Sequence record: ON528735
DNA length: 64,000 bases
Source: Shigella phage ESh25
Reading direction: 5' to 3' (one strand)
Part shown: piece by piece, positions 4,307 to 54,515 of the stretch
Position numbering within the stretch: position 1 is the stretch's first letter
How the letters are laid out: every line of letters starts with the position of its first letter
The notes under the pieces: model-generated
What the model was told of the DNA's origin: nothing
Seen by the model: the letters and a program-made list of their open reading frames with translations, nothing else
Databases searched by the model: none
Made by a program: the position numbers and the translations under genes

Positions 4307-4909
4307 TTATAGATTAAATCCTTCAAAATCAAGAGTATAGATAGTGTATGTTGAATACTTTTTATACTCATATCTATCTGCAATTCTAAATACACTTCCA
4401 GCTGGTATCATTACTTCTTGTTCATCTGAAACTAATTCCATATTACGATAACGATGGCTATCCGGAAACTTAAAGTTTGGATTGTATTCTTTACAGCGTA
4501 GAGCTTTTATAGCATACTCCTGGAAATTGAATACCATAGGAGCTTTGAATTCAAAAATAACTTGTGTGTTATACTCTAAACCGGAAGCAAAATGTAGAGC
4601 TATATTTTTATCATATGAAGCTGATACGACTTTATCAAATGTAATAATATCAATTCCTTGATTTAATACTTGCTTAGTCTCAGCTGGAACACCTCTCCAA
4701 AGAGGTTTATCGTTTGGAACCAAACGAGATTTGATTATTTCATTTAACCAAGTATGGTCATCTGGCTTATTAGTAATACAATGAATTAAAAGTTCAATTT
4801 CAGATAAATTAAACCCTTCAGAAAGCAATTCTTCACGAATAGAAGCACGCACCGATGCATCCATTGATTTTATTTTAAAATCTTTTAGTTGCATTACTGA
4901 GTATTTCAT
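4307..4909 (-). CDS. modA: ADP-ribosyltransferase ModA
   Basis: 200 aa; R...S...E(xE) ART-like motifs (LWRG, SASYD, EQEVMIP); paralog of adjacent ORF; T4 synteny. Confidence 0.75.
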   Translation of the reverse strand: MKYSVMQLKDFKIKSMDASVRASIREELLSEGFNLSEIELLIHCITNKPDDHTWLNEIIKSRLVPNDKPLWRGVPAETKQVLNQGIDIITFDKVVSASYDKNIALHFASGLEYNTQVIFEFKAPMVFNFQEYAIKALRCKEYNPNFKFPDSHRYRNMELVSDEQEVMIPAGSVFRIADRYEYKKYSTYTIYTLDFEGFNL

Positions 4910-5529
4910 TCAACTACCTCAATATCATAAACTTTAAATGTTCCAAATGAATCGTGTAATTTTTCTTTTGAAATAGAAGTTATTCTATACTTTCCAATTG
5001 GAATCATCCATTCTTGTTCATGTACAATCATCATTAAGTTATCAGTTCTTTCTGAATCTAACCCATCAGTATCTTCATACGTGTACTTAAACTCAGTATT
5101 AGGAGAAGAAAGTATAATATCGCTGATATGGTCAGAATAATTAAAAGCTTTATCAGTTTTTAAGCGAAGTACTATTTCAGTGAAATATTCAGCATAAGAA
5201 AAAGAACACGCTGTATGCAAACTAGTAGTAAATGAATCTACCCTGTTCGTTGAAAACACTTCTCCAACTTGCAAATCTTTAATAAGTTCTTTTGTCGATT
5301 TTGATATACCACGATATAATTGATAAGGCGATTTAGTTAAATGCTTTTTAATGATTTTATTCAACTGTCTGTGAAGAGCTTCATTCTTTTTTGCTTCCAT
5401 ACATTGCCAAAGAACAGACTGCTCAAAATCAGTAAATTTTTCACAGACCTTTTTATACATATCATATTGAAAATCAACGCTTTCAGCTTTTATAGATAAC
5501 TGTTCAACATCTGCAGGATTAATAATCAT
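4906..5529 (-). CDS. modB: ADP-ribosyltransferase ModB
   Basis: 207 aa; LYRG, FSTNR, EQEWMIP motifs; ATGA overlap with modA. Confidence 0.75.
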   Translation of the reverse strand: MIINPADVEQLSIKAESVDFQYDMYKKVCEKFTDFEQSVLWQCMEAKKNEALHRQLNKIIKKHLTKSPYQLYRGISKSTKELIKDLQVGEVFSTNRVDSFTTSLHTACSFSYAEYFTEIVLRLKTDKAFNYSDHISDIILSSPNTEFKYTYEDTDGLDSERTDNLMMIVHEQEWMIPIGKYRITSISKEKLHDSFGTFKVYDIEVVE

Positions 5530-10392: not shown

Positions 10393-10749
10393 TTAACCTC
10401 TATTCATAAAAGCATTAAAAATTTGGTCATCAATAGATGGAATAGCAACTTTTTCTGCATCATTTAGCAAATCATTAATTTCATCAGATAGCATAACACA
10501 TGTACCTTTATTTCCTGTAATTGTTACTGCGCAATTACGAACGTTTTCTTTATTAAATTTTAGGTTAATATTTTCGTAATGAAAATCCTTTAATGCTGAA
10601 TATATTTTTAAAATAAAATTGTCTTTTACTACAATAAACCCAACCTCACTATTAAAACGTGGTTCATGGAAACTGTAATAAACCTTTTCATCTATAAAAT
10701 CGTATGAAATTTTTTCCATTTTTAAATATGAAAATTCAGAACTATACAT
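10393..10749 (-). CDS. hypothetical protein
   Basis: 118 aa ORF. Confidence 0.5.
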   Translation of the reverse strand: MYSSEFSYLKMEKISYDFIDEKVYYSFHEPRFNSEVGFIVVKDNFILKIYSALKDFHYENINLKFNKENVRNCAVTITGNKGTCVMLSDEINDLLNDAEKVAIPSIDDQIFNAFMNRG

Positions 10750-22148: not shown

Positions 22149-22835
22149 TTAAAAATCGTGGGTAGAATCAGCTTCAAGAGCTACTACATAATTCGCATGT
22201 TCACCTTCAAATTTAGCAGCACCTTGTTTACCTTTTGCCCAGAGCAGAAGTTTATAATTTCCTGGTTGCATTTTCATATTTGCCATATTGATAATGAAAT
22301 TAAATGTATTTTCACCATCATAATCACCAAGAGTCAAAGAATATTTAACACGAGTCAAAGCAGAATCTTCTACTTTATTAAAACCGTTAATTATGATTTT
22401 ACCTTCTTTTACCGTGATAGCAATTGTATCAATTTGCAGACCACGAGATACACGCAGCAGTTGTTGAAGGTCTTCAGCTTTAATTTCAGTAACAACAGAT
22501 GCTACCGGAAATGGAATTGGTTTATTAGGAGCAACTACTGTACTCGGATCGGCTGCTGGCCAAAAAATTGTTGAGCGGGCATCAGCAATTTTAATATTTC
22601 CATCTTCTGACTGGGAAATTTCTGCATCATCATTAACTAAAGACAGAATACCGAGAAAACCGTTCAAATCGTAAATTGCTACATCAAAATCAATAACGTC
22701 AGAAATATTTGCTTCCGCATAAGTTGTACCATTAACTGCGCGAGTCATAATAAATTGACCTGATTTAAGCATAATGCCAGAGTTAATAGTAGCGAAATTT
22801 TTCAAAATATTCAGTGTGTCTTTAGATAATTTCAT
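22149..22835 (-). CDS. 45: sliding clamp (gp45)
   Basis: 228 aa; sequence recognised as T4 gp45. Confidence 0.95.
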   Translation of the reverse strand: MKLSKDTLNILKNFATINSGIMLKSGQFIMTRAVNGTTYAEANISDVIDFDVAIYDLNGFLGILSLVNDDAEISQSEDGNIKIADARSTIFWPAADPSTVVAPNKPIPFPVASVVTEIKAEDLQQLLRVSRGLQIDTIAITVKEGKIIINGFNKVEDSALTRVKYSLTLGDYDGENTFNFIINMANMKMQPGNYKLLLWAKGKQGAAKFEGEHANYVVALEADSTHDF

Positions 22836-23719
22836 TTCAATTTCCTATTTACATAATAGTTAGACCAGGACCGTACAGCACCCTGATAAGATTCGTCGTT
22901 AAACCCATTAGCTACTGCAATTTTACGAAATTTATTATAACTTGGTTTTCCGTAAGCATGCCATAAAGATTTTAATTCATCTTCATGTTCAATCCAAGTT
23001 CCTCTAGCTTTAGATTTTCTAAATTTTGATTTGAATTCCGGTAAATTATTTCTAACAGTTGCTTGAATTGAAGCTCTCTGTCTTCTTTCAGCATTATTCC
23101 ATAATTCTTTTTGAGATTTAGAAATTTTTGATCTTACACTTTCTGAATTCATTATATCACTAAACTTTTTAGCATAACTACAATCAAGATATTTCAATTT
23201 CATCTTATTTGAGAGTTTAAGCTTTTTCTCATCGGTCCAGTGATTCTTCATTGAATTAGATATTTTGTATTTTACTTCAGAACTATGTTTGTAACCTTTA
23301 CGAATACCGACATACTCAGGCGTAATTTCAGATTGCGAAAGCTTTACAATTTTTCCAGTTAAAACATTTTTATATGTTCCATATCCTTTAGCACCAATTA
23401 AAGTATTTTCATCTGCGTATGCTTTATTAAAATATTTTATATTACTTTTTGCTTTAACTTTTAATTGAAAAAATCTCTCCAATTTTCTTGGATCTAATAT
23501 AGTTTCAGCTAAAATTTTGACGGTATATTTAGTGGTTTTAATAAGTTCAAAATATTCATCGCTATAACTCGATGACACGCTTCCAGTATAAATCTTTCCA
23601 GCTGAATCAATTATATTTGTTCCATCGAAAATTGCGTTAATTTTTGAACCTATATAATAACACGGAAAAATATTTTTAGCTTCCCGCTCTGGAAAGCTAA
23701 TAAGATATACTAAATTCAT
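22832..23719 (-). CDS. GIY-YIG homing endonuclease (Seg-like)
   Basis: 295 aa; N-terminal VYLISFPE...CYYIGSK motif; C-terminal repeated basic Ser/Lys motifs (NUMOD-like); inserted between 45 and rpbA. Confidence 0.7.
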
Positions 23720-47494: not shown

Positions 47495-48049
47495 TCACTT
47501 TGAAATCATAGTTGGAATGACAGAATCAAGATAATTCTTTAGCGCAATAGCTTCGTCTTTGGTAAATGTGACAATATGTGCTCGAGAATCATCATTTTGG
47601 CGAACAAGTACGACATCGCCATCTTCATAAGAAGTCTTGACATCCAAAGTCGTAGTATAGTTTGCAGCTACTGGATTAATAATGCTAGCACCGCGATCTT
47701 TAGCCCATTGAAGTTTAACCTTTTCGGGTGTTTCGACTGTTTCAGATTCCAAGAATTCTTTCACCTTGGCAACGAATGTTGCCCAATTGTTGATAGAAAG
47801 ACACATAAATTCAGTTTCAATATTACCGCCGTAAAGGCCACGATAAAAACGAACTTGGAGGTCGCCTGTAATATTAGTTACACCGGTAACTCCTGAGGGA
47901 GCATAAGATAAAATCGCAGCCAGTTCCATAGGAAGAATAGTAATACTATCGTCTTCCTGCGTCAGAACGTATACATTATCACGTTTTTCGATAACCAGGT
48001 CACCGAACAAATCAGTTGTTTCAATTACAGCTTTCATATTATTTACCAA
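47495..48049 (-). CDS. hypothetical protein, paralog pair member
   Basis: 184 aa; C-terminus ...TKDEAIALKNYLDSVIPTM. Confidence 0.5.
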   Translation of the reverse strand: MVNNMKAVIETTDLFGDLVIEKRDNVYVLTQEDDSITILPMELAAILSYAPSGVTGVTNITGDLQVRFYRGLYGGNIETEFMCLSINNWATFVAKVKEFLESETVETPEKVKLQWAKDRGASIINPVAANYTTTLDVKTSYEDGDVVLVRQNDDSRAHIVTFTKDEAIALKNYLDSVIPTMISK

Positions 48050-48224
48050 TTAAAGTTTCAATATAAGAATCAAGATTTACTTTAGCTTCTTCCATAAGAA
48101 TTTTGTATTTAATCTTGTTAGCATGTCCGGAGAAAGCTGATTCATCAATAATTGTTGATGTATGAACAGCTCTACTATACGTCTCAATTAATTCTCTTAA
48201 TTTAAAAGCCTGCTCACTTGTCAT
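48039..48224 (-). CDS. small helical protein, family member
   Basis: 61 aa; MTSEQAFKLRELIE... Confidence 0.45.
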   Translation of the reverse strand: MTSEQAFKLRELIETYSRAVHTSTIIDESAFSGHANKIKYKILMEEAKVNLDSYIETLIGK

Positions 48225-48387
48225 TACATACTCCTTTGAACCATATCAATAATGTTATTCACCAGATTATAAGTAAACATTGGGTAATTATATTGAATCA
48301 TCACATACACAACAAACAAAACTTTCATTCTCTTCTCCTTGGCAGTTGACAAGATTACTATACCATAACCTTGCCAACTTGTAAACC

Positions 48388-48561
48388 ATTAAATGGCGTT
48401 TTCAATAAAATTCTGAAGCTTTGTGTGAGCATCAACCATGATTTTCATTTCTTCTTTGGCGAAAGCTGTACCTCTTTCCCGAGAAGAACATTCATAGTCA
48501 GAAACTGCATTAGCATATTCTTCAATTAGTTTCATTAAAAACATCTGCTTTTCAGTTTTCA
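48388..48561 (-). CDS. small helical protein, family member
   Basis: 57 aa by manual translation (MKTEKQMFLMKLIEEY...); below track threshold. Confidence 0.4.
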
Positions 48562-48746
48562 TTATTCCACCTAATCATTTCAAGATATTGAACTAACTTA
48601 GCTTTAGATTTATCCAAATCCTTTTTAGCTGTTGCTATACCGTCGTATGAATATCCTTCACAATGCTCAACTGCTAATTGGTATGAATCTATTTCAATAT
48701 CACGTGCTAATTTAATGATTTTTTCAAACTGTTCACGTGTTAGCAT
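48552..48746 (-). CDS. small helical protein, family member
   Basis: 64 aa; MLTREQFEKIIKLARD... Confidence 0.45.
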   Translation of the reverse strand: MLTREQFEKIIKLARDIEIDSYQLAVEHCEGYSYDGIATAKKDLDKSKAKLVQYLEMIRWNNEN

Positions 48747-48748
48747 AC

Positions 48749-48952
48749 TTAAGCTCTCGTATTATGATCAATAATTTCATCAAGAAACATATCTAACGCT
48801 TCTATAGCATTATCCACTTTAGTTTCAAAGTCTTTAATGCCTTTATTCGAAATACCCGATGAATACCAAGCAAAGTCAATCAGCTCTTCATCTGCTTTAC
48901 GAATTGAAGCCACTAATTCCTTGATTTTATCTGCTTGCTCTATACTAATCAT
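48749..48952 (-). CDS. small helical protein, family member
   Basis: Track ORF trimmed to [14 protein letters not shown]... Confidence 0.45.
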   Translation of the reverse strand: MISIEQADKIKELVASIRKADEELIDFAWYSSGISNKGIKDFETKVDNAIEALDMFLDEIIDHNTRA

Positions 48953-49140
48953 TATTCCACCACATATGACAGAGAGAATATTGCACACGCCATGTGAGTT
49001 GCAACTTCATCACACATATTATAACGTTTCTTAAGAAGTTCTACAAGTTCTTCACTAGTAACTTCATCCATGTCGACGAAAAAATCACCATTAATGATGA
49101 CGTAGATATTTCCTTCTTGATTAAGTGCTTCAATTTTCAT
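48952..49140 (-). CDS. hypothetical acidic protein
   Basis: Track ORF trimmed to MKIEALNQ... after SD AAAGAGGAG; upstream track codons lie in promoter/leader. Confidence 0.45.
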
Positions 49141-49214
49141 GATGTTCTCCTCTTTATCTAATAGTTGTATAGTATCACGGCTCAAACGAAAAGTAAACCG
49201 GTAAAATGAAAAAA

Positions 49215-49230
49215 GTCTCCCGAAGGAGAC
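49215..49230 (-). terminator. intrinsic terminator hairpin
   Basis: gtctcccgaaggagac. Confidence 0.45.
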
Positions 49231-49235
49231 TAATG

Positions 49236-49622
49236 CTATTCGAGGGAAAGAAGATATTTACTTTGGTAAAACATTCCAGTAATATCATCTATCGTGCTTT
49301 GGATGGCTGGAGGCATTTCTTTATAAATGCTGTTAGATTGGTCTAGTATGCGATCAATCATTTTAATTGTGTCGGTAGGAAGTTTACTGGCATCTGGAAT
49401 TGAAGGCGTGTATTTTCTACCAGAATACCCCAAATATTGCTCACCAAATTTATCAATCAAATCTGGCAACTCGGAGAAAATAAAATCGTATGCTTTGTGT
49501 CTAGCATAACTTTTAGTTTCAAAATGTGCAGAATGAAAATAAGCTTGTGCAGCCATTAATAAACCTAAGTATTCATCTGCCTTTGAAGGTTTTCCACTTT
49601 GTGAAAAGTCGCTGAATTTCAT
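49236..49622 (-). CDS. hypothetical protein (rI.-1 position)
   Basis: 128 aa ORF. Confidence 0.5.
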
Positions 49623-49912
49623 TCAGTCTCCAATTTAATGTTCATAATTCTAGCGTATGATTGTGCCATCTCCGCGCCTCGTTCTATACATTCAAAATCA
49701 GAAGAGCACGGGTCATTTTTATAGGTCGTTCTCATAAAACTATAGAACTGTTCAGATGATTCTACGCTTTTATTTTCAAAAAGCATATAAACATGTCTAA
49801 TACCAGATTCCATAAATTTATCAAAATGAGGATCGACATTCGCTTCAATTGGTGGAGATAAAGCAAATGACAATCCTAGCATGGCAAAAAGTGCCGTTGC
49901 TTTTAAGGCCAT
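49619..49912 (-). CDS. rI: lysis inhibition regulator RI
   Basis: 97 aa; signal-anchor MALKATALFAMLGLSFALSPPIEA; recognised as T4 RI. Confidence 0.85.
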   Translation of the reverse strand: MALKATALFAMLGLSFALSPPIEANVDPHFDKFMESGIRHVYMLFENKSVESSEQFYSFMRTTYKNDPCSSDFECIERGAEMAQSYARIMNIKLETE

Positions 49913-49924
49913 AAAGGCCTCCTA

Positions 49925-50137
49925 TCATTTTTGTCCTGTATTTACTTTATGCCGATGCACGGCCTTAACTTTATCAAGGTATTTTTCAAAATTTCGCAAT
50001 CTAGTATAGTCTGCCGGAGATTGGTTGAGTGATACTTCTCGACGCAAAGCTGAAATGATATTTCCAACTTCCCTACGAATTTCATCTAATTGAAGCACAG
50101 TAAGATTGCGAAGTTGCTTTTCAGTTAATTGTAGCAT
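49925..50137 (-). CDS. hypothetical protein (rI.1 position)
   Basis: 70 aa ORF. Confidence 0.45.
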
Positions 50138-50179
50138 ATATACCCCTTTAGTTAGATAAACCTATTTATAACTTTTGCA

Positions 50180-50761
50180 CTAACCGAGCTTTTTAGTTAA
50201 TTCATTCCAATGTTTTCTGCACAAAGAAACATAAATTTCATCACCAATACAGATTTGATTACCTTCTTTAACCGGTGTTCCATCTTCCATTAATCGAGCT
50301 GTCATAATAGCCTTTTTACCACAATGACAAACTGCCTTTAGTTCAATAAGTTTATCTGCAATCGCCAAAAGTTCTTTAGAACCTTCAAATAATTTTCCAG
50401 CGAAATCAGTCCTTAGCCCATAAGCCATAACAGGAACATTATATGTATCAACAATTCGACTTAATTGATGCACCTGTTCAGTTTTTAAAAACTGAGCTTC
50501 ATCTACAAATACACAATGAATATCTTTTTGTGCTTCAGCCCATTTATAGAACTCGAAAATATCCATATCATCTGTAATAATATTCGCTTCCTGTTTAATT
50601 CCAATGCGAGAAACGACTTCACAGACAGAATCACGAGTATCAATAGCAGGCTTAAGAACTAATACACCCATTCCGCGTTCTTTATAATTATGTGCAGCAG
50701 TCAAAAGAGAAGCAGATTTTCCAGCATTCATTGCTGCGTAAGTAAAAATTAAACTCGCCAT
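50180..50761 (-). CDS. tk: thymidine kinase
   Basis: 193 aa; P-loop AMNAGKS, C-terminal Zn ribbon CHCG...C. Confidence 0.9.
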   Translation of the reverse strand: MASLIFTYAAMNAGKSASLLTAAHNYKERGMGVLVLKPAIDTRDSVCEVVSRIGIKQEANIITDDMDIFEFYKWAEAQKDIHCVFVDEAQFLKTEQVHQLSRIVDTYNVPVMAYGLRTDFAGKLFEGSKELLAIADKLIELKAVCHCGKKAIMTARLMEDGTPVKEGNQICIGDEIYVSLCRKHWNELTKKLG

Positions 50762-50770
50762 ATCACCTTC

Positions 50771-50956
50771 TTAAAGCGTATTCACATAAGCTATTAATTC
50801 GTTTTCTTTCTTATCAAACCGATCAGCAAATTCTTCTTGCTGATCGGGAGATAGCGGGCCGTATTCATCATAAAAGGTGTTTGCTTCTGTATGCTCATCT
50901 AGAAGTTCATGGATAAGCTCAAACAATTTATCTTTTTGTTCTTTACTCAGACTCAT
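50771..50956 (-). CDS. hypothetical acidic protein
   Basis: 61 aa ORF. Confidence 0.45.
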   Translation of the reverse strand: MSLSKEQKDKLFELIHELLDEHTEANTFYDEYGPLSPDQQEEFADRFDKKENELIAYVNTL

Positions 50957-51122
50957 ATATTAATTTCCAGGAGTTTTAAAATAATTCGCTTTTGCTTAAA
51001 TATTTCCATAGTTAAATGACCAGTATCTTTTTGACCGATTCCAATGGCAAAACCTTTATTGACAGCGAGTTCAATTAAATTATCAAGCTCACGTAACACT
51101 TCATATTGTAACTCAAAACTAT

Positions 51123-51350
51123 TCATTTCGGTTTACCTTCTTTAACGAAATCAGGATAAGGATAAAATCCTGAATAAAATCCTTCACCTTTATGATTGAT
51201 GCATCCTTTATTAGAACAATAGCACCAATAATCGAAATCACAAGCCATTTCATCATTACATAAAGCAAAAACAACTGGCCATTCACACTTTTCGCAGTGG
51301 GCATTTTTAAGAATACTAGTTTGGCTCATAACCATGTAACCTTTAAACAA
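51123..51350 (-). CDS. Cys-rich small protein
   Basis: 75 aa; HCEKCEW...C...CYC...C; start unverified. Confidence 0.45.
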   Translation of the reverse strand: MFKGYMVMSQTSILKNAHCEKCEWPVVFALCNDEMACDFDYWCYCSNKGCINHKGEGFYSGFYPYPDFVKEGKPK

Positions 51351-51538
51351 TATTCTTCTACATGTTGTTTACGACCTTTCCTATCAATAAAGGTATATTC
51401 AACGAATGTTCCAATATAGTCTTTATCTACATCATGTGGACTATTAATTGGGCATTTAGTACGGCAAATGCGTTCCCATTGACGAATAATTTCCACTTTG
51501 TTTTTAGGATCAAACGGATGCGGGTAATGTACTTTCAT
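51326..51538 (-). CDS. hypothetical protein
   Basis: 70 aa ORF. Confidence 0.45.
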   Translation of the reverse strand: MKVHYPHPFDPKNKVEIIRQWERICRTKCPINSPHDVDKDYIGTFVEYTFIDRKGRKQHVEEYCLKVTWL

Positions 51539-51989
51539 AATCCACCACTATTAAATCAATATCAGGAGTAAACATGTCGATTAATTTAGAAACCTTATCC
51601 CAATCGCCGCCAGCAATACCGCAACCTATGCGTGGAATGTAAATTACTGGTTTAAACAAAAGGGTTTCTGCCTGTAGATTTAATTCTATCATGCAGTTTA
51701 CTAAAGCACCATAATCAAGATTAGGACCCGGTTCGTATTGTGTATACAGGTTATAGCATATACCAAATCCCGTAGGACTATGTTTAAAAACAATAGACAT
51801 ATCGCCTAATTTATCACGAGAACCGTACTCGGTAGTGGTTTTATCTATTTCTAAAATTTTGGGATAGGCTCTTGCTAATTGACCCGCTACGCCAGAGCCC
51901 ATTGTGTGGAAGCAATTGCACCCGTGCGCAATAATATTACCTTGAAGAAATAGGGCGACAATATCGCCCTTGATATATTTTACAATCAT
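51510..51989 (-). CDS. macro-domain protein (ADP-ribose binding/processing)
   Basis: 159 aa; GCNCFHTMGSGVAGQL motif typical of macro domains. Confidence 0.6.
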   Translation of the reverse strand: MIVKYIKGDIVALFLQGNIIAHGCNCFHTMGSGVAGQLARAYPKILEIDKTTTEYGSRDKLGDMSIVFKHSPTGFGICYNLYTQYEPGPNLDYGALVNCMIELNLQAETLLFKPVIYIPRIGCGIAGGDWDKVSKLIDMFTPDIDLIVVDYESTLPASV

Positions 51990-52327
51990 CTAGTACTCAA
52001 TCCTCGATTATAAGAATCTACTAAACGGTCAACCATTGAATGACAAGCGGCTTTATCTTTCTCCTCCGCAACTGAACATTCTAAAGTATTCCACTTTTTA
52101 GCATATCGTTTTAACAATGTATCATTTTTATATCTGCTTGATTTATCTCTTTCTCCGTCTTTATATGCATATATTAATTTCTGCGCAAATTCAGCTTGGC
52201 ATGCTTTATTTTTCCCACAATAATCCGCGGCAGTACGGTTTACATACTCTCTAATTTCAGTATATGATGTATCTGCTAACACAGAAAATGAAATTAATCC
52301 TATACATAAAACCAAAATTTTAGTCAT
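51986..52327 (-). CDS. secreted protein (vs-region)
   Basis: 113 aa with signal peptide. Confidence 0.5.
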   Translation of the reverse strand: MTKILVLCIGLISFSVLADTSYTEIREYVNRTAADYCGKNKACQAEFAQKLIYAYKDGERDKSSRYKNDTLLKRYAKKWNTLECSVAEEKDKAACHSMVDRLVDSYNRGLSTR

Positions 52328-52865
52328 TTACTATTTCCAAAAGTTTATTATTTTTAAGGTAATTAGCCTTTTCTAGGACTTCAGAAGCATATTTAGAACC
52401 TGCTTTAACATTCCATCCCGAATTATAAGAGGATATTGCTTTTCTTATATCGCCCTTATGTATATTTAACCAATAAGAAAGTTCAATGTACGCCCAGGAA
52501 GCTGAATTGGACCGTTTATTCAACATTCTTTTTATTTCAGCATCGGTCATATTATAACCAAGTTCCTTAACTCTTGCTCGCATAGTAGGCAAATAATTTT
52601 GGAACATTCCATAAGCGTGATGCTTTGGTTTAGATTTTAAATTAACTCCGCCAGAGCTTTCTTGCCATAAAATAGCAGCCATTATATGACCTAATCCGCT
52701 CTTGTGGATATTTTTGTGTGTTTTATATTTTCCATCCTTAGAAAATTGTTCCCCGAATTGATACGCGTAACGCATGTTATCGAGTTGGACATTACTGAAA
52801 GTATGCTCGGAGCTATGTGCCATCATTGAAATGGCCAATAGACCAGCGAGTAGTGCTTTTCTCAT
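52320..52865 (-). CDS. secreted lytic transglycosylase-like protein
   Basis: 181 aa; signal peptide; QESSGG motif. Confidence 0.5.
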   Translation of the reverse strand: MRKALLAGLLAISMMAHSSEHTFSNVQLDNMRYAYQFGEQFSKDGKYKTHKNIHKSGLGHIMAAILWQESSGGVNLKSKPKHHAYGMFQNYLPTMRARVKELGYNMTDAEIKRMLNKRSNSASWAYIELSYWLNIHKGDIRKAISSYNSGWNVKAGSKYASEVLEKANYLKNNKLLEIVND

Positions 52866-52872
52866 GCTTACC

Positions 52873-53334
52873 TCATTGAGTTTTAATTACTGCTTTAGAA
52901 GCCTTTCCTGGTAAACGACGACTGTTGATAATTGCCATCCTACATTGAAGTGACGGGTTTTTGAACTTCTCATTAGGTTTACAAACCGTAAATCCAAGCC
53001 AAAGATTTCCATCTGTAATTTCCAAACGCCCAGGACGATATTCAACCCCATCAATAAAATCCTCGTCAATGTCAGGACGTGGAGGCATACTCAGGAATTC
53101 ATTAACTTCTAAAACATGGTCTTTTATTTTATGGAATAATTCAAAAACGTATGTCTCATCAATCTCCCGTTGAATTGCGCGATCAAGAAGATGTTGAGAA
53201 TATTTTAGATGAAACGATGAGACCCCTGCTGCTTTTGATGCCTCACGAATCTCATTGTTAATTTGACGAAACTCCGACTCAAAGTGACGACGGAGCTTAT
53301 TTCGACGGATAAAAACTTCTGTGTTGATAGTCAT
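52873..53334 (-). CDS. regB: endoribonuclease RegB
   Basis: 153 aa; T4 synteny and size. Confidence 0.8.
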   Translation of the reverse strand: MTINTEVFIRRNKLRRHFESEFRQINNEIREASKAAGVSSFHLKYSQHLLDRAIQREIDETYVFELFHKIKDHVLEVNEFLSMPPRPDIDEDFIDGVEYRPGRLEITDGNLWLGFTVCKPNEKFKNPSLQCRMAIINSRRLPGKASKAVIKTQ

Positions 53335-53361
53335 GTTATTCTCCTCTTAACTGATAGAAAA

Positions 53362-53391
53362 ATTATACCACAGTCAAGAGGAAAAGTAAAC
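53362..53391 (-). promoter_or_regulatory. early promoter (-35 GTTTAC, -10 TATAAT) for regB
   Basis: Consensus hexamers, then SD GAGGAG and regB ATG. Confidence 0.55.
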
Positions 53392-53393
53392 AG

Positions 53394-53672
53394 TTATTCT
53401 TTAAATCTAATCAATTTATTCATAGACTTTGAAACTTCTGCACGAACCTCATGTAAGTTTTTAAGCTGTTCAAGACGCTGCTCATAGTAAGCAATTTCAT
53501 CTTCTTCGAGACAGTCCTGTGAATCTTCTTTAAGATAACGTGCATAGTCCTGAAAAGCTTTACGGACTACTTCCTGGAAGTCATCAAGACTTTGAATTTT
53601 CTTAGGAGCGGCAGATACACGACGAGGTGCAGTATAATACTCATAACCAAACCCTGCACTTAATTGAGCCAT
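53394..53672 (-). CDS. hypothetical protein
   Basis: Track ORF trimmed to MAQLSAG... (TAATG overlap with upstream gene). Confidence 0.45.
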
Positions 53673-53935
53673 TAGTATTTTTCCTCTGGTTGGAACACTG
53701 CACGACAAGCCCACATACTGGCTTCTTTGAGTTTCGTTTTAGCAATAGTTAACTGATCGAGGCTTTCAGCATAATTCTTCGCGAGTTCATCATCTTCACA
53801 ATTATCTAGTGCTTCCCAGAATTCATCGTATAAAGCGTCAAAGATAAGTCCTAAACGAACTTCAGCGTCTTTAATAGCATTTACTTTACCGATTTTTTTC
53901 GTCGGTATGTGGCTTATAACCTTTAATATCTTCAA
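53672..53935 (-). CDS. hypothetical protein
   Basis: 87 aa ORF. Confidence 0.45.
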
Positions 53936-54153
53936 TCATATTTGACTTCCTCACCAGTACATAAATCATATTCAACTAAACGAATAGGTTCATGAATGCC
54001 ATATCCTTGAACAGAAATTTCTGTCGTAGGATAAATTCCATTAATATCACCCATATTCCAGGCTTCATTAAATTGCTGTTCGCCTGAATTACTAAACCAC
54101 TCGGCGAAAGCATTTAGCACATCTTTAGAACCTTCAATAATTATCTTTGCCAT
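53932..54153 (-). CDS. hypothetical protein
   Basis: 73 aa ORF. Confidence 0.45.
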   Translation of the reverse strand: MAKIIIEGSKDVLNAFAEWFSNSGEQQFNEAWNMGDINGIYPTTEISVQGYGIHEPIRLVEYDLCTGEEVKYD

Positions 54154-54515
54154 TACAAACTCTCAGTAAAGGTACGAGCAATAACGTCGCGCTGCTGTTC
54201 CGGAGTCAGAGAGTTAAAGCGAACTGCATAACCGGATACACGGATGGTCAGCTGCGGATATTTTTCCGGATGCTTAACTGCATCTTCCAGAGTTTCGCGA
54301 CGCAGAACGTTAACGTTCAGGTGTTGACCACCTTCAATTTTAACTGTAGGCTGTTGCTCAATTTCAATTTCACGGGCATGCAAACCATAGAAAATTTCTG
54401 GGTCTACAAAAGAGTCCTCTTTAAAGGTTTTAGAGACAATAATTCGTGCTTGAATACCATCTTCAAAATAAATAGTACCTTTATGTGTGCCTTCAAGAAT
54501 TTGATATGCTTTCAT
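54153..54515 (-). CDS. autonomous glycyl-radical cofactor-like protein (GrcA/YfiD-like)
   Basis: 120 aa; C-terminal [25 protein letters not shown] glycyl radical signature. Confidence 0.65.

What the first reader, a model, noticed from the sequence alone, without database searches (positions are those of the whole stretch)
51510..51989. Macro-domain protein downstream of tk
The 159 aa protein carries GCNCFHTMGSGVAGQL, a hallmark of macro domains that bind or hydrolyse ADP-ribose and related adducts. The same genome encodes the ModA/ModB ADP-ribosyltransferases. In a phage, a macro domain could reverse ADP-ribosylation of DNA, RNA or protein, including host ADP-ribosylating defenses, or degrade NAD-derived signals.
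Basis: partly seen in the sequence, partly recalled or inferred. Interest (0 to 1): 0.5.

Follow-up and report, generated by a model that had tools for sequence, protein, structure and literature searches.

The report
T4-type phage macrodomain, anti-DarT2 candidate

Summary

A November 2025 preprint found T4 tk.4 to be the single T4 gene needed on a DarTG2 host and renamed it adfM. Its enzymatic activity was inferred, not assayed. The suggested link to ModA/ModB is not.

Three details appear to be new.
- This allele is only 58% identical to T4's, inside flanks that are 94-100% identical. It is a sharply bounded cassette swap, and both alleles are common (277 versus 224 phage records).
- The family has an invariant Gln where DarG, TARG1 and phiKZ AdfM have the catalytic Lys. 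This matches SCO6735, but the adjacent loop is short.
- The window allele carries the family-typical binding loops, while T4's loop 2 is atypical.

This is a new member of a known kind, of modest interest.

The parts
51510..51989 (-). tk.4/adfM-type macrodomain gene, 159 aa, a single macro domain with nothing else attached
51912..51926 (-). Codons H22-G23-C24-N25-C26 (HGCNC), the active-site entry motif. N25 aligns with the Asn conserved in DarG, SCO6735 and phiKZ AdfM. H22 aligns with SCO6735 His24 and with Poa1p's HSCNC motif.
   Evidence: H22, G23, N25 and C26 are invariant in 75 homologs. HGCNC is present in 72 of 75. Alignment with reference macrodomains.
51885..51902 (-). Codons M30-A35 (MGSGVA), phosphate-binding loop 1 of the macro domain
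   Evidence: G33 and A35 are invariant and M30 nearly so. Aligns with TARG1 MGAGIA and DarG MGKGIA.
51720..51752 (-). Codons N80-N90 (NLYTQYEPGPN). Q84 (51738-51740) occupies the position of the catalytic Lys of TARG1 (K84) and DarG (K80), and of the essential Gln85 of SCO6735. The loop that follows is short.
   Evidence: N80, Y82 and Q84 are invariant. HMM and MAFFT alignments. This is the modal motif in the family. SCO6735 Q85A abolishes activity (PMC9411070).
51600..51635 (-). Codons P119-W130 (PRIGCGIAGGDW), diphosphate-binding loop 2. A126 sits where TARG1 has the catalytic Asp125.
   Evidence: P119, G122, G124 and W130 are invariant. This is the modal family motif, whereas T4-type alleles have GIG[G/K/N]GNW. 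Alignment.
51540..51951 (-). Divergent allelic cassette: 49-70% DNA identity to T4 inside flanks that are 94-100% identical
   Evidence: Sliding identity. The 5' junction lies right after nt 38 of the gene. 40 of 74 aa-identical codons differ synonymously.
51953..51969 (-). Perfect hairpin GGGCGATATTGTCGCCC in codons 7-13, identical in T4. It marks the 5' recombination junction of the cassette. No function has been shown.
   Evidence: Terminator-like hit. Stem-loop of about -13 kcal/mol in both phages, with divergence starting immediately 3' of it.
51986..52327 (-). vs (valyl-tRNA synthetase modifier) directly upstream. Its TGA stop overlaps the ATG of the macrodomain gene (ATGA), which suggests translational coupling.
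   Evidence: ORF list and sequence. Annotation in CM8 and T4.
51326..51538 (-). tk.3 homolog directly downstream. It overlaps the last 29 nt of the macrodomain gene and is 94-96% identical to T4.

Best explanation
The gene encodes a stand-alone, single-domain macrodomain enzyme. It is the positional ortholog of T4 Tk.4/AdfM. It sits in the minus-strand gene run regB, vs.1, vs, tk.4, tk.3 and is probably co-transcribed with it and translationally coupled to vs. Its most likely job is counter-defence against the bacterial DarTG2 toxin-antitoxin system. DarT2 ADP-ribosylates thymidines in TNTC motifs of single-stranded phage DNA and so blocks replication. The macrodomain binds the ADP-ribose through its two glycine-rich loops (MGSGVA and PRIGCGIAGGDW) and hydrolyses the thymidine-ribose bond, which restores replicable DNA. 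The chemistry is probably SCO6735-like rather than DarG-like, because an invariant Gln84 replaces the catalytic Lys. Gln84 would position the distal ribose, and a water molecule would be held by the backbone around H22-G23. Shown here: the ORF, the fold, the class, the conserved residues, the synteny and the allele mosaic. Shown by others: T4 tk.4 is required on a DarTG2 host; the Gln-type SCO6735 and the Lys-type phiKZ AdfM remove DarT2 marks in vitro. Inferred: that this 58%-identical allele does the same, and that catalysis rather than toxin binding is the mode of action.
Against: No biochemical assay exists for any Tk.4-family protein. The T4 evidence is genetic and comes from a preprint, which infers the hydrolase mechanism. 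This allele differs from T4's at 65 of 155 aligned residues and has never been tested. It lacks DarG's catalytic Lys, and it lacks SCO6735's extended Lys-bearing mobile loop, which that paper links to DNA binding. It has Gly where SCO6735 has Val25. If the protein acts purely on the ADP-ribose-thymidine product, the coexistence of two sharply different alleles in near-identical genomes is not obviously explained.
Confidence: 0.7

Rival explanations
1. Same fold, different or broader target. The two Tequatrovirus alleles are not functionally equivalent. This allele may be tuned to another DarT2 variant, for example by binding and inhibiting the toxin as SCO6735 and DarG also do. It may instead reverse another ADP-ribosylating defence or escape a host factor that recognises the T4-type protein.
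For: There is a sharp cassette replacement inside flanks that are 94-100% identical. Both alleles are maintained at high frequency, 277 versus 224 records. The alleles are not sister lineages. Loop 2 differs: GCGIAGGDW here versus GAGIGKGNW in T4. Catalytically dead SCO6735, DarG and TARG1 still inhibit DarT through interaction. The AdfA locus of this phage is also allelically replaced.
Against: All invariant and near-invariant active-site positions are retained in this allele. Cassette mosaicism is common in T4-like phages generally, from general knowledge, and need not reflect selection on specificity. No data show an allele-specific phenotype.
Confidence: 0.13
2. A housekeeping small-molecule enzyme. 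This is the legacy annotation as an ADP-ribose 1''-phosphate phosphatase (Poa1p-like) or O-acetyl-ADP-ribose deacetylase, which would clear NAD-derived metabolites during infection.
Against: The T4 ortholog has a specific DarTG2 phenotype. Many macrodomains show weak Appr-1''-p phosphatase activity in vitro that has no known physiological role (general knowledge). T4-type RNA repair leaves no 2'-phosphate that would generate this metabolite (general knowledge). The Poa1p similarity is strong only over residues 3-79. This activity would not exclude the DNA activity.
Confidence: 0.08
3. An eraser for the phage's own ADP-ribosyltransferases (Alt, ModA, ModB) that resets modifications on RNA polymerase, other host proteins or RNAylated targets.
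For: modA and modB are present in the same window at 4307-5529.
Against: The genes lie about 46 kb apart and are not linked. Alt, ModA and ModB make arginine-linked ADP-ribose, a bond handled by ARH/DraG-type hydrolases and not by ALC1-like macrodomains (general knowledge). The gene is not essential on plain E. coli K-12 and scores only with DarTG2. Homologs occur in many phage groups outside the T-even phages, including Pseudomonas, Vibrio, Bacillus and Acinetobacter phages; whether those phages carry Alt/Mod-type enzymes was not checked.
Confidence: 0.03
4. A degrader or sponge of NAD-derived immune signals such as Thoeris gcADPR or His-ADPR.
Confidence: 0.03

Closest known systems
T4 Tk.4 = AdfM (anti-DarT factor Macrodomain; bioRxiv 10.1101/2025.11.20.689424)
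   Same: It occupies the same slot between vs and tk.3. It has nearly the same length (159 versus 155 aa) and is collinear, with 58% identity (E=1e-70). It has the same HGCNC, MGSGVA and NLYTQ motifs and the same invariant Gln84.
   Different: 65 of 155 aligned residues differ. Loop 2 is GCGIAGGDW here versus GAGIGKGNW in T4. The C-terminus is 4 aa longer, with a 29-nt overlap onto tk.3 instead of 4 nt. At the DNA level the gene body is only 49-70% identical, although the flanks are 94-100% identical. The anti-DarTG2 phenotype has been shown only for the T4 allele.
Streptomyces coelicolor SCO6735 and Bacteroides Bt_1257 (Gln-type ALC1-like macrodomains; PDB 5E3B, 2FG1/2AFC)
   Different: Identity is only 27-29%. 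The window protein lacks the 6-residue insertion in the mobile loop and its Lys89 and Lys93. It has Gly23 for Val25 and Ser32 for Lys34.
DarG antitoxin macrodomain (M. tuberculosis 5M3I, T. aquaticus 5M31/5M3E; NCBIfam NF048014)
   Different: Gln84 replaces the catalytic Lys80. There is no C-terminal DarT-binding domain and no adjacent darT. It scores 27.7 bits against the equivalog cut-off of 250. Identity is 20-22%.
phiKZ gp104 'AdfM' (Cell Rep 2026, PMC13309987)
   Same: It is also a phage-encoded single macrodomain of about 160 aa that counters DarTG2, and it was shown in vitro to de-ADP-ribosylate DarT2-modified DNA.
   Different: It belongs to a different lineage. It is Lys-type (FPTKDNW), its only solved relatives are DarG structures (9e-25), and it is about 21% identical to the window protein, detectable only by profile comparison (hhalign probability 96%). 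The shared name hides two independent acquisitions or subclasses.
Human TARG1/OARD1 (PDB 4J5R/4J5S)
   Same: It is the top Foldseek hit (E=1.3e-9, TM 0.72/0.81), with profile E=2e-16. It also reverses DarT thymidine ADP-ribosylation.
   Different: The TARG1 catalytic dyad Lys84/Asp125 is Gln84/Ala126 here.
Yeast Poa1p (ADP-ribose 1''-phosphate phosphatase; PDB 6LFQ-6LFU)
   Different: The phmmer similarity is strong only over residues 3-79. Poa1p is 180 aa with insertions. Poa1p acts on a small-molecule substrate, whereas the genetic evidence for the phage ortholog points to a DNA-directed counter-defence role.

Membership tests
Macro domain superfamily (Pfam PF01661) | Profile match above the curated gathering score | tested here: met
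   32 bits against a cut-off of 22, E=1.3e-7, covering profile positions 2-117 of 118
Macro domain superfamily (Pfam PF01661) | Three-layer alpha/beta/alpha macro fold | tested here: met
Macro domain superfamily (Pfam PF01661) | Two glycine-rich ADP-ribose (di)phosphate-binding loops | tested here: met
   MGSGVA (30-35) and PRIGCGIAGGDW (119-130). G33, A35, P119, G122 and G124 are invariant in 75 homologs.
ALC1-like (TARG1/DarG/SCO6735/Poa1p) class of macrodomains | Closest structural and profile neighbours belong to this class rather than to the MacroD, PARG or macroH2A classes | tested here: met
T4 Tk.4 / AdfM | Conserved genomic position between vs and tk.3 in a Tequatrovirus | tested here: met
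T4 Tk.4 / AdfM | Full-length sequence homology to T4 Tk.4 | tested here: met
   58% identity with no gaps over 155 aa, E=1e-70
T4 Tk.4 / AdfM | Required for plating on a DarTG2-expressing host | not testable with these tools
   Shown only for the T4 allele. A phage knockout or complementation with this allele is needed.
T4 Tk.4 / AdfM | Hydrolysis of ADP-ribosyl-thymidine in ssDNA | not testable with these tools
   Not assayed for any Tk.4-family protein. It is inferred in the preprint.
DarG antitoxin (NCBIfam NF048014 equivalog) | Score at or above the equivalog cut-off | tested here: not met
   27.7 bits against a cut-off of 250. Only profile positions 2-142 of 338 are matched.
DarG antitoxin (NCBIfam NF048014 equivalog) | Catalytic lysine (Taq DarG K80) | tested here: not met
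   Gln84 occupies the aligned position and is invariant in the family
DarG antitoxin (NCBIfam NF048014 equivalog) | C-terminal DarT-binding domain and an adjacent darT gene | tested here: not met
   The protein is a 159-aa single domain. Its neighbours are vs and tk.3.
SCO6735/Bt_1257 subclass (PMC9411070) | Gln in place of the catalytic Lys (Gln85) | tested here: met
   Q84 aligns with the Gln of Bt_1257 and SCO6735
SCO6735/Bt_1257 subclass (PMC9411070) | Extended mobile loop (about 5 aa longer than in DarG/TARG1) carrying Lys89 and Lys93 | tested here: not met
   The window loop QYEPGPN has DarG/TARG1 length and no Lys. There is a 6-column gap relative to SCO6735 and Bt_1257.
SCO6735/Bt_1257 subclass (PMC9411070) | Val25 (or Ile) after the conserved His | tested here: not met
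   Gly23 is invariant in the phage family. The proposed role of Val25 is through its backbone oxygen, so the consequence is unclear.
Poa1p-type ADP-ribose 1''-phosphate phosphatase | Sequence and structure similarity, including the HxCNC motif | tested here: met
Poa1p-type ADP-ribose 1''-phosphate phosphatase | Appr-1''-p phosphatase activity | not testable with these tools
   An enzyme assay is needed

The most novel reading that the evidence does not exclude
The two deeply diverged tk.4/adfM alleles that coexist in otherwise near-identical Tequatrovirus genomes are functionally distinct counter-defence variants kept by balancing or diversifying selection. For example, each might neutralise a different set of DarT2-like or other nucleic-acid ADP-ribosyltransferases, partly by toxin binding, or might evade host factors that sense the macrodomain. 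Under this reading the Tk.4 family would also be a third catalytic solution for DNA de-ADP-ribosylation, with a Gln catalytic residue on a short-loop scaffold, distinct from both DarG and SCO6735.
Probability: 0.12. Interest if true: 0.6.

Novelty: new member of a known kind. Interest (0 to 1): 0.3.

Why it matters
The practical value is annotation. Hundreds of T4-like phage genomes label this gene 'phosphatase', 'RNase III inhibitor', 'hypothetical protein' or even 'MazF family', although its T4 ortholog is an anti-DarTG2 factor. Slightly more than half of the Tequatrovirus records that match either allele at 90% identity or more (277 versus 224) carry this untested allele rather than T4's. 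This means predictions of DarTG2 resistance for therapeutic or model T4-like phages rest on an extrapolation that should be tested. Mechanistically, the family offers a compact Gln-type DNA ADP-ribosyl hydrolase. It differs from DarG and from phiKZ AdfM, which share only the name. The sharp allele swap at this locus, together with the one at the adfA locus, is a convenient natural experiment on how anti-defence genes turn over.

Tried and rejected
1. Plus-strand reading of the given coordinates. It is full of stops, so the gene is on the minus strand.

2. Is it a DarG antitoxin proper? No. It is far below the NCBIfam cut-off and has no catalytic Lys, no C-terminal domain and no darT neighbour.

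3. Is it the same family as phiKZ AdfM? No. That protein is a Lys-type DarG-like lineage, only about 21% identical.

4. The 'RNase III inhibitor/YmdB' and 'O-acetyl-ADP-ribose deacetylase' labels carried by some database entries. YmdB and MacroD-type structures are clearly poorer matches than the ALC1-like group.

5. I expected the NADAR anti-DarT1 gene (adfN) next to the primase. It is actually T4 30.3, which by the T4 map lies outside the region this window covers (not checked in the window). The primase-adjacent gene 61.2 is adfA.

6. Promoter and terminator scan of 50000-54500. Promoter-like sites were no more frequent than in shuffled sequence (14 versus 16.2), so I make no promoter claim for this gene. 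The single terminator-like hit inside the gene is a coding-region hairpin. A regex search for MotA-box middle promoters found none, and the only late-promoter motif (TATAAATA) is at 50170-50163.

7. I could not obtain the central part of the Poa1p sequence from the tools, so the residue of Poa1p equivalent to Q84 was not determined.

8. Model coordinates are not exposed to scripts, so allele differences could not be mapped onto the 3D surface.

Full report
**1. Observation**

The ORF is real and the coordinates are exact, but it lies on the minus strand. It starts with ATG at 51989, its stop codon is at 51512-51510, and it encodes 159 aa. The plus-strand reading of the same interval is full of stop codons. 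The quoted string GCNCFHTMGSGVAGQL is at residues 23-38.

The ATG overlaps the TGA stop of the upstream gene (ATGA). The last 29 nt overlap the start of the next gene.

The window is a Tequatrovirus. Positions 50000-53500 are 99.1% identical to Shigella phage CM8, and 473 phage records cover at least 80% of that stretch.

Transcription in this region runs from high to low coordinates. The order is regB (52873-53334), vs.1, vs (51986-52327), this gene, a tk.3 homolog (51326-51538), three small ORFs, then tk (50180-50761). 'Downstream of tk' is therefore true only in plus-strand coordinates.

modA-like and modB-like genes are indeed in the window, at 4307-4909 and 4906-5529 on the minus strand. 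They match PHROG 832 at E=1.4e-33 and 7.8e-42, and Pfam has no model that hits them.

**2. What it is**

Every search identifies a macro domain.
- Pfam Macro scores 32 bits against a cut-off of 22, covering essentially the whole profile.
- By sequence alone, the protein hits these solved structures: Bacteroides Bt_1257 (4e-10), yeast Poa1p (1.6e-9), Streptomyces SCO6735 (8.5e-8), M. tuberculosis DarG macrodomain (4.9e-5) and human TARG1 (0.01).
- A profile of 75 homologs sharpens these matches to 2e-19, 7e-15, 2e-15, 2e-11 and 2e-16 respectively. Coronavirus Mac1 reaches only 2e-3.
- An AlphaFold2 model built on that alignment is confident (mean pLDDT 93.9, pTM 0.89).

The protein is therefore an ALC1-like (TARG1/DarG/SCO6735/Poa1p-class) macrodomain. 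It is a single domain with nothing attached.

**3. Identity with a known gene**

T4 has tk.4 in the same slot between vs and tk.3, annotated 'phosphatase; contains A1pp phosphatase motif'. The window protein aligns with T4 Tk.4 without gaps over 155 aa at 58% identity, E=1e-70.

A bioRxiv preprint of 20 November 2025 (10.1101/2025.11.20.689424) ran a transposon screen of T4 on a DarTG2-expressing host. tk.4 was the single significant hit, and a clean knockout was sensitised to DarTG2. The authors renamed the gene adfM (anti-DarT factor Macrodomain). They state that enzymatic removal of ADP-ribose from DNA 'seems likely', and no assay was done.

Earlier work showed that T4 lacking both adfA and adfN stays DarTG2-resistant. 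It also noted that T-even phages are generally DarTG2-resistant (PMC11825919 and its preprint).

**4. Active site**

In the 75-member family alignment, which reaches down to 38% identity, these residues are invariant: H22, G23, N25, C26, G33, A35, D49, N80, Y82, Q84, P119, G122, G124 and W130.

I aligned the window protein with reference sequences printed by the tools.
- Q84 falls on the catalytic Lys of TARG1 (K84), Taq/Mtb DarG (K80) and phiKZ gp104. It also falls on the Gln of Bt_1257 and SCO6735.
- A126 falls on TARG1 Asp125.

PMC9411070 shows that SCO6735 reverses DarT thymidine-linked DNA ADP-ribosylation in vitro and in cells. It shows that Gln85 is essential, since Q85A is inactive. 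It also states that the Gln distinguishes SCO6735/ALC1 homologs from TARG1/DarG homologs.

The phage family is not a plain SCO6735 type, however.
- It lacks the 6-residue extension of the 'mobile loop' with Lys89 and Lys93 that the same paper links to DNA binding.
- It has Gly23 for Val25 and Ser32 for Lys34.

So it combines a Gln catalytic position with a DarG/TARG1-length loop.

It also fails the membership tests for DarG proper. It scores 27.7 bits against the 250-bit NCBIfam equivalog cut-off, and it has no C-terminal DarT-binding domain and no darT neighbour.

A bacterial homolog at about 40% identity (Pelagimonas) is likewise stand-alone, among unrelated genes.

SCO6735 was inactive on guanosine-linked and 2'-OH RNA ADP-ribose (PMC11833690). 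This fits a thymidine-directed role for Gln-type enzymes.

**5. Two 'AdfM' proteins are different things**

phiKZ gp104 is also called AdfM and is biochemically proven to de-ADP-ribosylate DarT2-modified DNA (PMC13309987).
- It is Lys-type (FPTKDNW).
- Its only solved relatives are DarG macrodomains (9e-25 to 9e-18).
- It is about 21% identical to the window protein and detectable only by profile comparison.

The T4-type and phiKZ-type proteins are therefore separate lineages within the ALC1-like class that converge on the same defence.

**6. The allele mosaic**

I aligned window 48000-54500 against the corresponding T4 region.
- tk, tk.3, vs, vs.1 and regB are 94-100% identical.
- The body of this gene drops to 49-70%.

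The two phages are 100% identical from upstream through nt 38 of the gene. That stretch includes a perfect hairpin, GGGCGATATTGTCGCCC, in codons 7-13. They diverge immediately after it. [quoted passage not shown]

Over codons 14-155, 40 of 74 codons that encode the same amino acid and have synonymous alternatives differ. The 3' junction lies at the tk.3 overlap.

Both alleles are common. The 361-nt gene body of the window allele matches 277 phage records at 90% identity or more. That of T4 matches 224.

The alleles are not sister lineages.
- The window type groups with other Tevenvirinae-like sequences at 73-83%.
- The T4 type is an outlier, 52-60% identical to everything else.

The window allele carries the modal family motif in every functional loop: HGCNC, MGSGVA, NLYTQYEPGPN and PRIGCGIAGGDW. 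T4-type alleles have an unusual loop 2, GIG[G/K/N]GNW. The experimentally studied T4 protein is thus the atypical member, and the window protein is the canonical one.

**7. Mechanism and rivals**

Most likely (about 0.7): the protein is made from the regB-vs-tk transcription unit and translationally coupled to vs. It binds ADP-ribose attached by DarT2 to thymidines of single-stranded phage DNA and hydrolyses the bond through a Gln84-dependent, SCO6735-like mechanism. This allows replication to proceed.

What is shown and what is inferred:
- Shown here: the fold, the class, the conserved residues, the synteny and the mosaic structure.
- Shown by others: the T4 genetics and the SCO6735 and phiKZ biochemistry.
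- Inferred: activity of this allele, and catalysis rather than toxin binding.

Rivals:
- The alleles differ in target or act partly by binding the toxin (about 0.13). The mosaic and the loop-2 difference motivate this, as does the fact that dead SCO6735 and DarG still inhibit DarT.
- The legacy Poa1p-like small-molecule phosphatase or deacetylase role (about 0.08). This would not be exclusive of the DNA activity.
- Erasing the phage's own Alt/ModA/ModB marks (about 0.03). The genes are unlinked, and from general knowledge arginine-linked ADP-ribose is not a substrate class for this type of macrodomain.
- Degrading Thoeris-type signals (about 0.03).

**8. Verdict**

I rate it a new member of a known kind. 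The residual interest lies in three points: the untested but more common allele, the Gln-type active site on a short-loop scaffold, and the absence of any biochemistry for the family. Interest is 0.3.

Noticed in passing
window 51540-51951 (minus strand): The body of the macrodomain gene is a sharply bounded divergent cassette. It is 49-70% identical to T4 at the DNA level, inside flanks that are 94-100% identical. Both alleles are common among sequenced Tequatroviruses (277 versus 224 records at 90% identity or more).
   Followed up: yes
window 10393-10749 (minus strand): At the T4 61.2 (adfA, anti-DarT1 factor) position this phage has a 118-aa ORF instead of the 208-aa protein. It is homologous only to the C-terminal half of T4 gp61.2 (34% identity, with the last 14 residues identical). 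This short allele occurs in about 290 phage records. Phage CM8, which shares the window's tk.4 allele, has the long form, so the two loci are not linked.
   Followed up: partly
window 50770-51350 (minus strand): A second divergent block lies between tk and tk.3, at about 50-65% identity to T4 with many gaps. Three small ORFs (50771-50956, 50953-51126, 51123-51350) replace T4's tk.1 and tk.2. The third is Cys-rich (CEKCE...CNDEMAC...CYC...GC), which suggests a small zinc-binding protein.
   Followed up: no
window 51953-51969 (minus strand): There is a perfect 7-bp-stem hairpin, GGGCGATATTGTCGCCC (about -13 kcal/mol), inside codons 7-13. It is identical in T4 and lies exactly at the 5' junction of the divergent cassette. 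The scan flagged it as terminator-like. Whether it is an RNA element, a recombination hotspot or chance is unknown.
   Followed up: partly
L002 (T4) 4423-4890; A1 members P0015, P0033, P0034: T4-type Tk.4 alleles have an atypical diphosphate-binding loop 2, GIG[G/K/N]GNW, instead of the GIAGGDW found in most family members. The only genetically characterised member is therefore the unusual one.
   Followed up: partly
L004 (phiKZ) 22518-23006: phiKZ gp104, also named AdfM, is a Lys-type DarG-like macrodomain only about 21% identical to T4-type AdfM. One name now covers two distinct lineages.
   Followed up: yes
public records under hits H17, H33, H57, H2: Annotation of this gene family is inconsistent across phage records. 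Labels include 'phosphatase', 'RNase III inhibitor', 'MazF family toxin-antitoxin system protein', 'leucine aminopeptidase', 'Poa1p-like family protein', 'macro domain protein' and 'hypothetical protein'. One protein cluster (P0002, 130 aa) is annotated from Met30, which cuts off the invariant HGCNC motif.
   Followed up: no
window 4307-5529 (minus strand): The ModA-like and ModB-like ADP-ribosyltransferases match no Pfam-A family at E of 0.01 or better and are recognised only by PHROG 832.
   Followed up: no
window 50163-50170 (minus strand): The only T4 late-promoter consensus (TATAAATA) in 50000-54500 lies just 3' of the tk stop codon, ahead of the rI.1 homolog.
   Followed up: no
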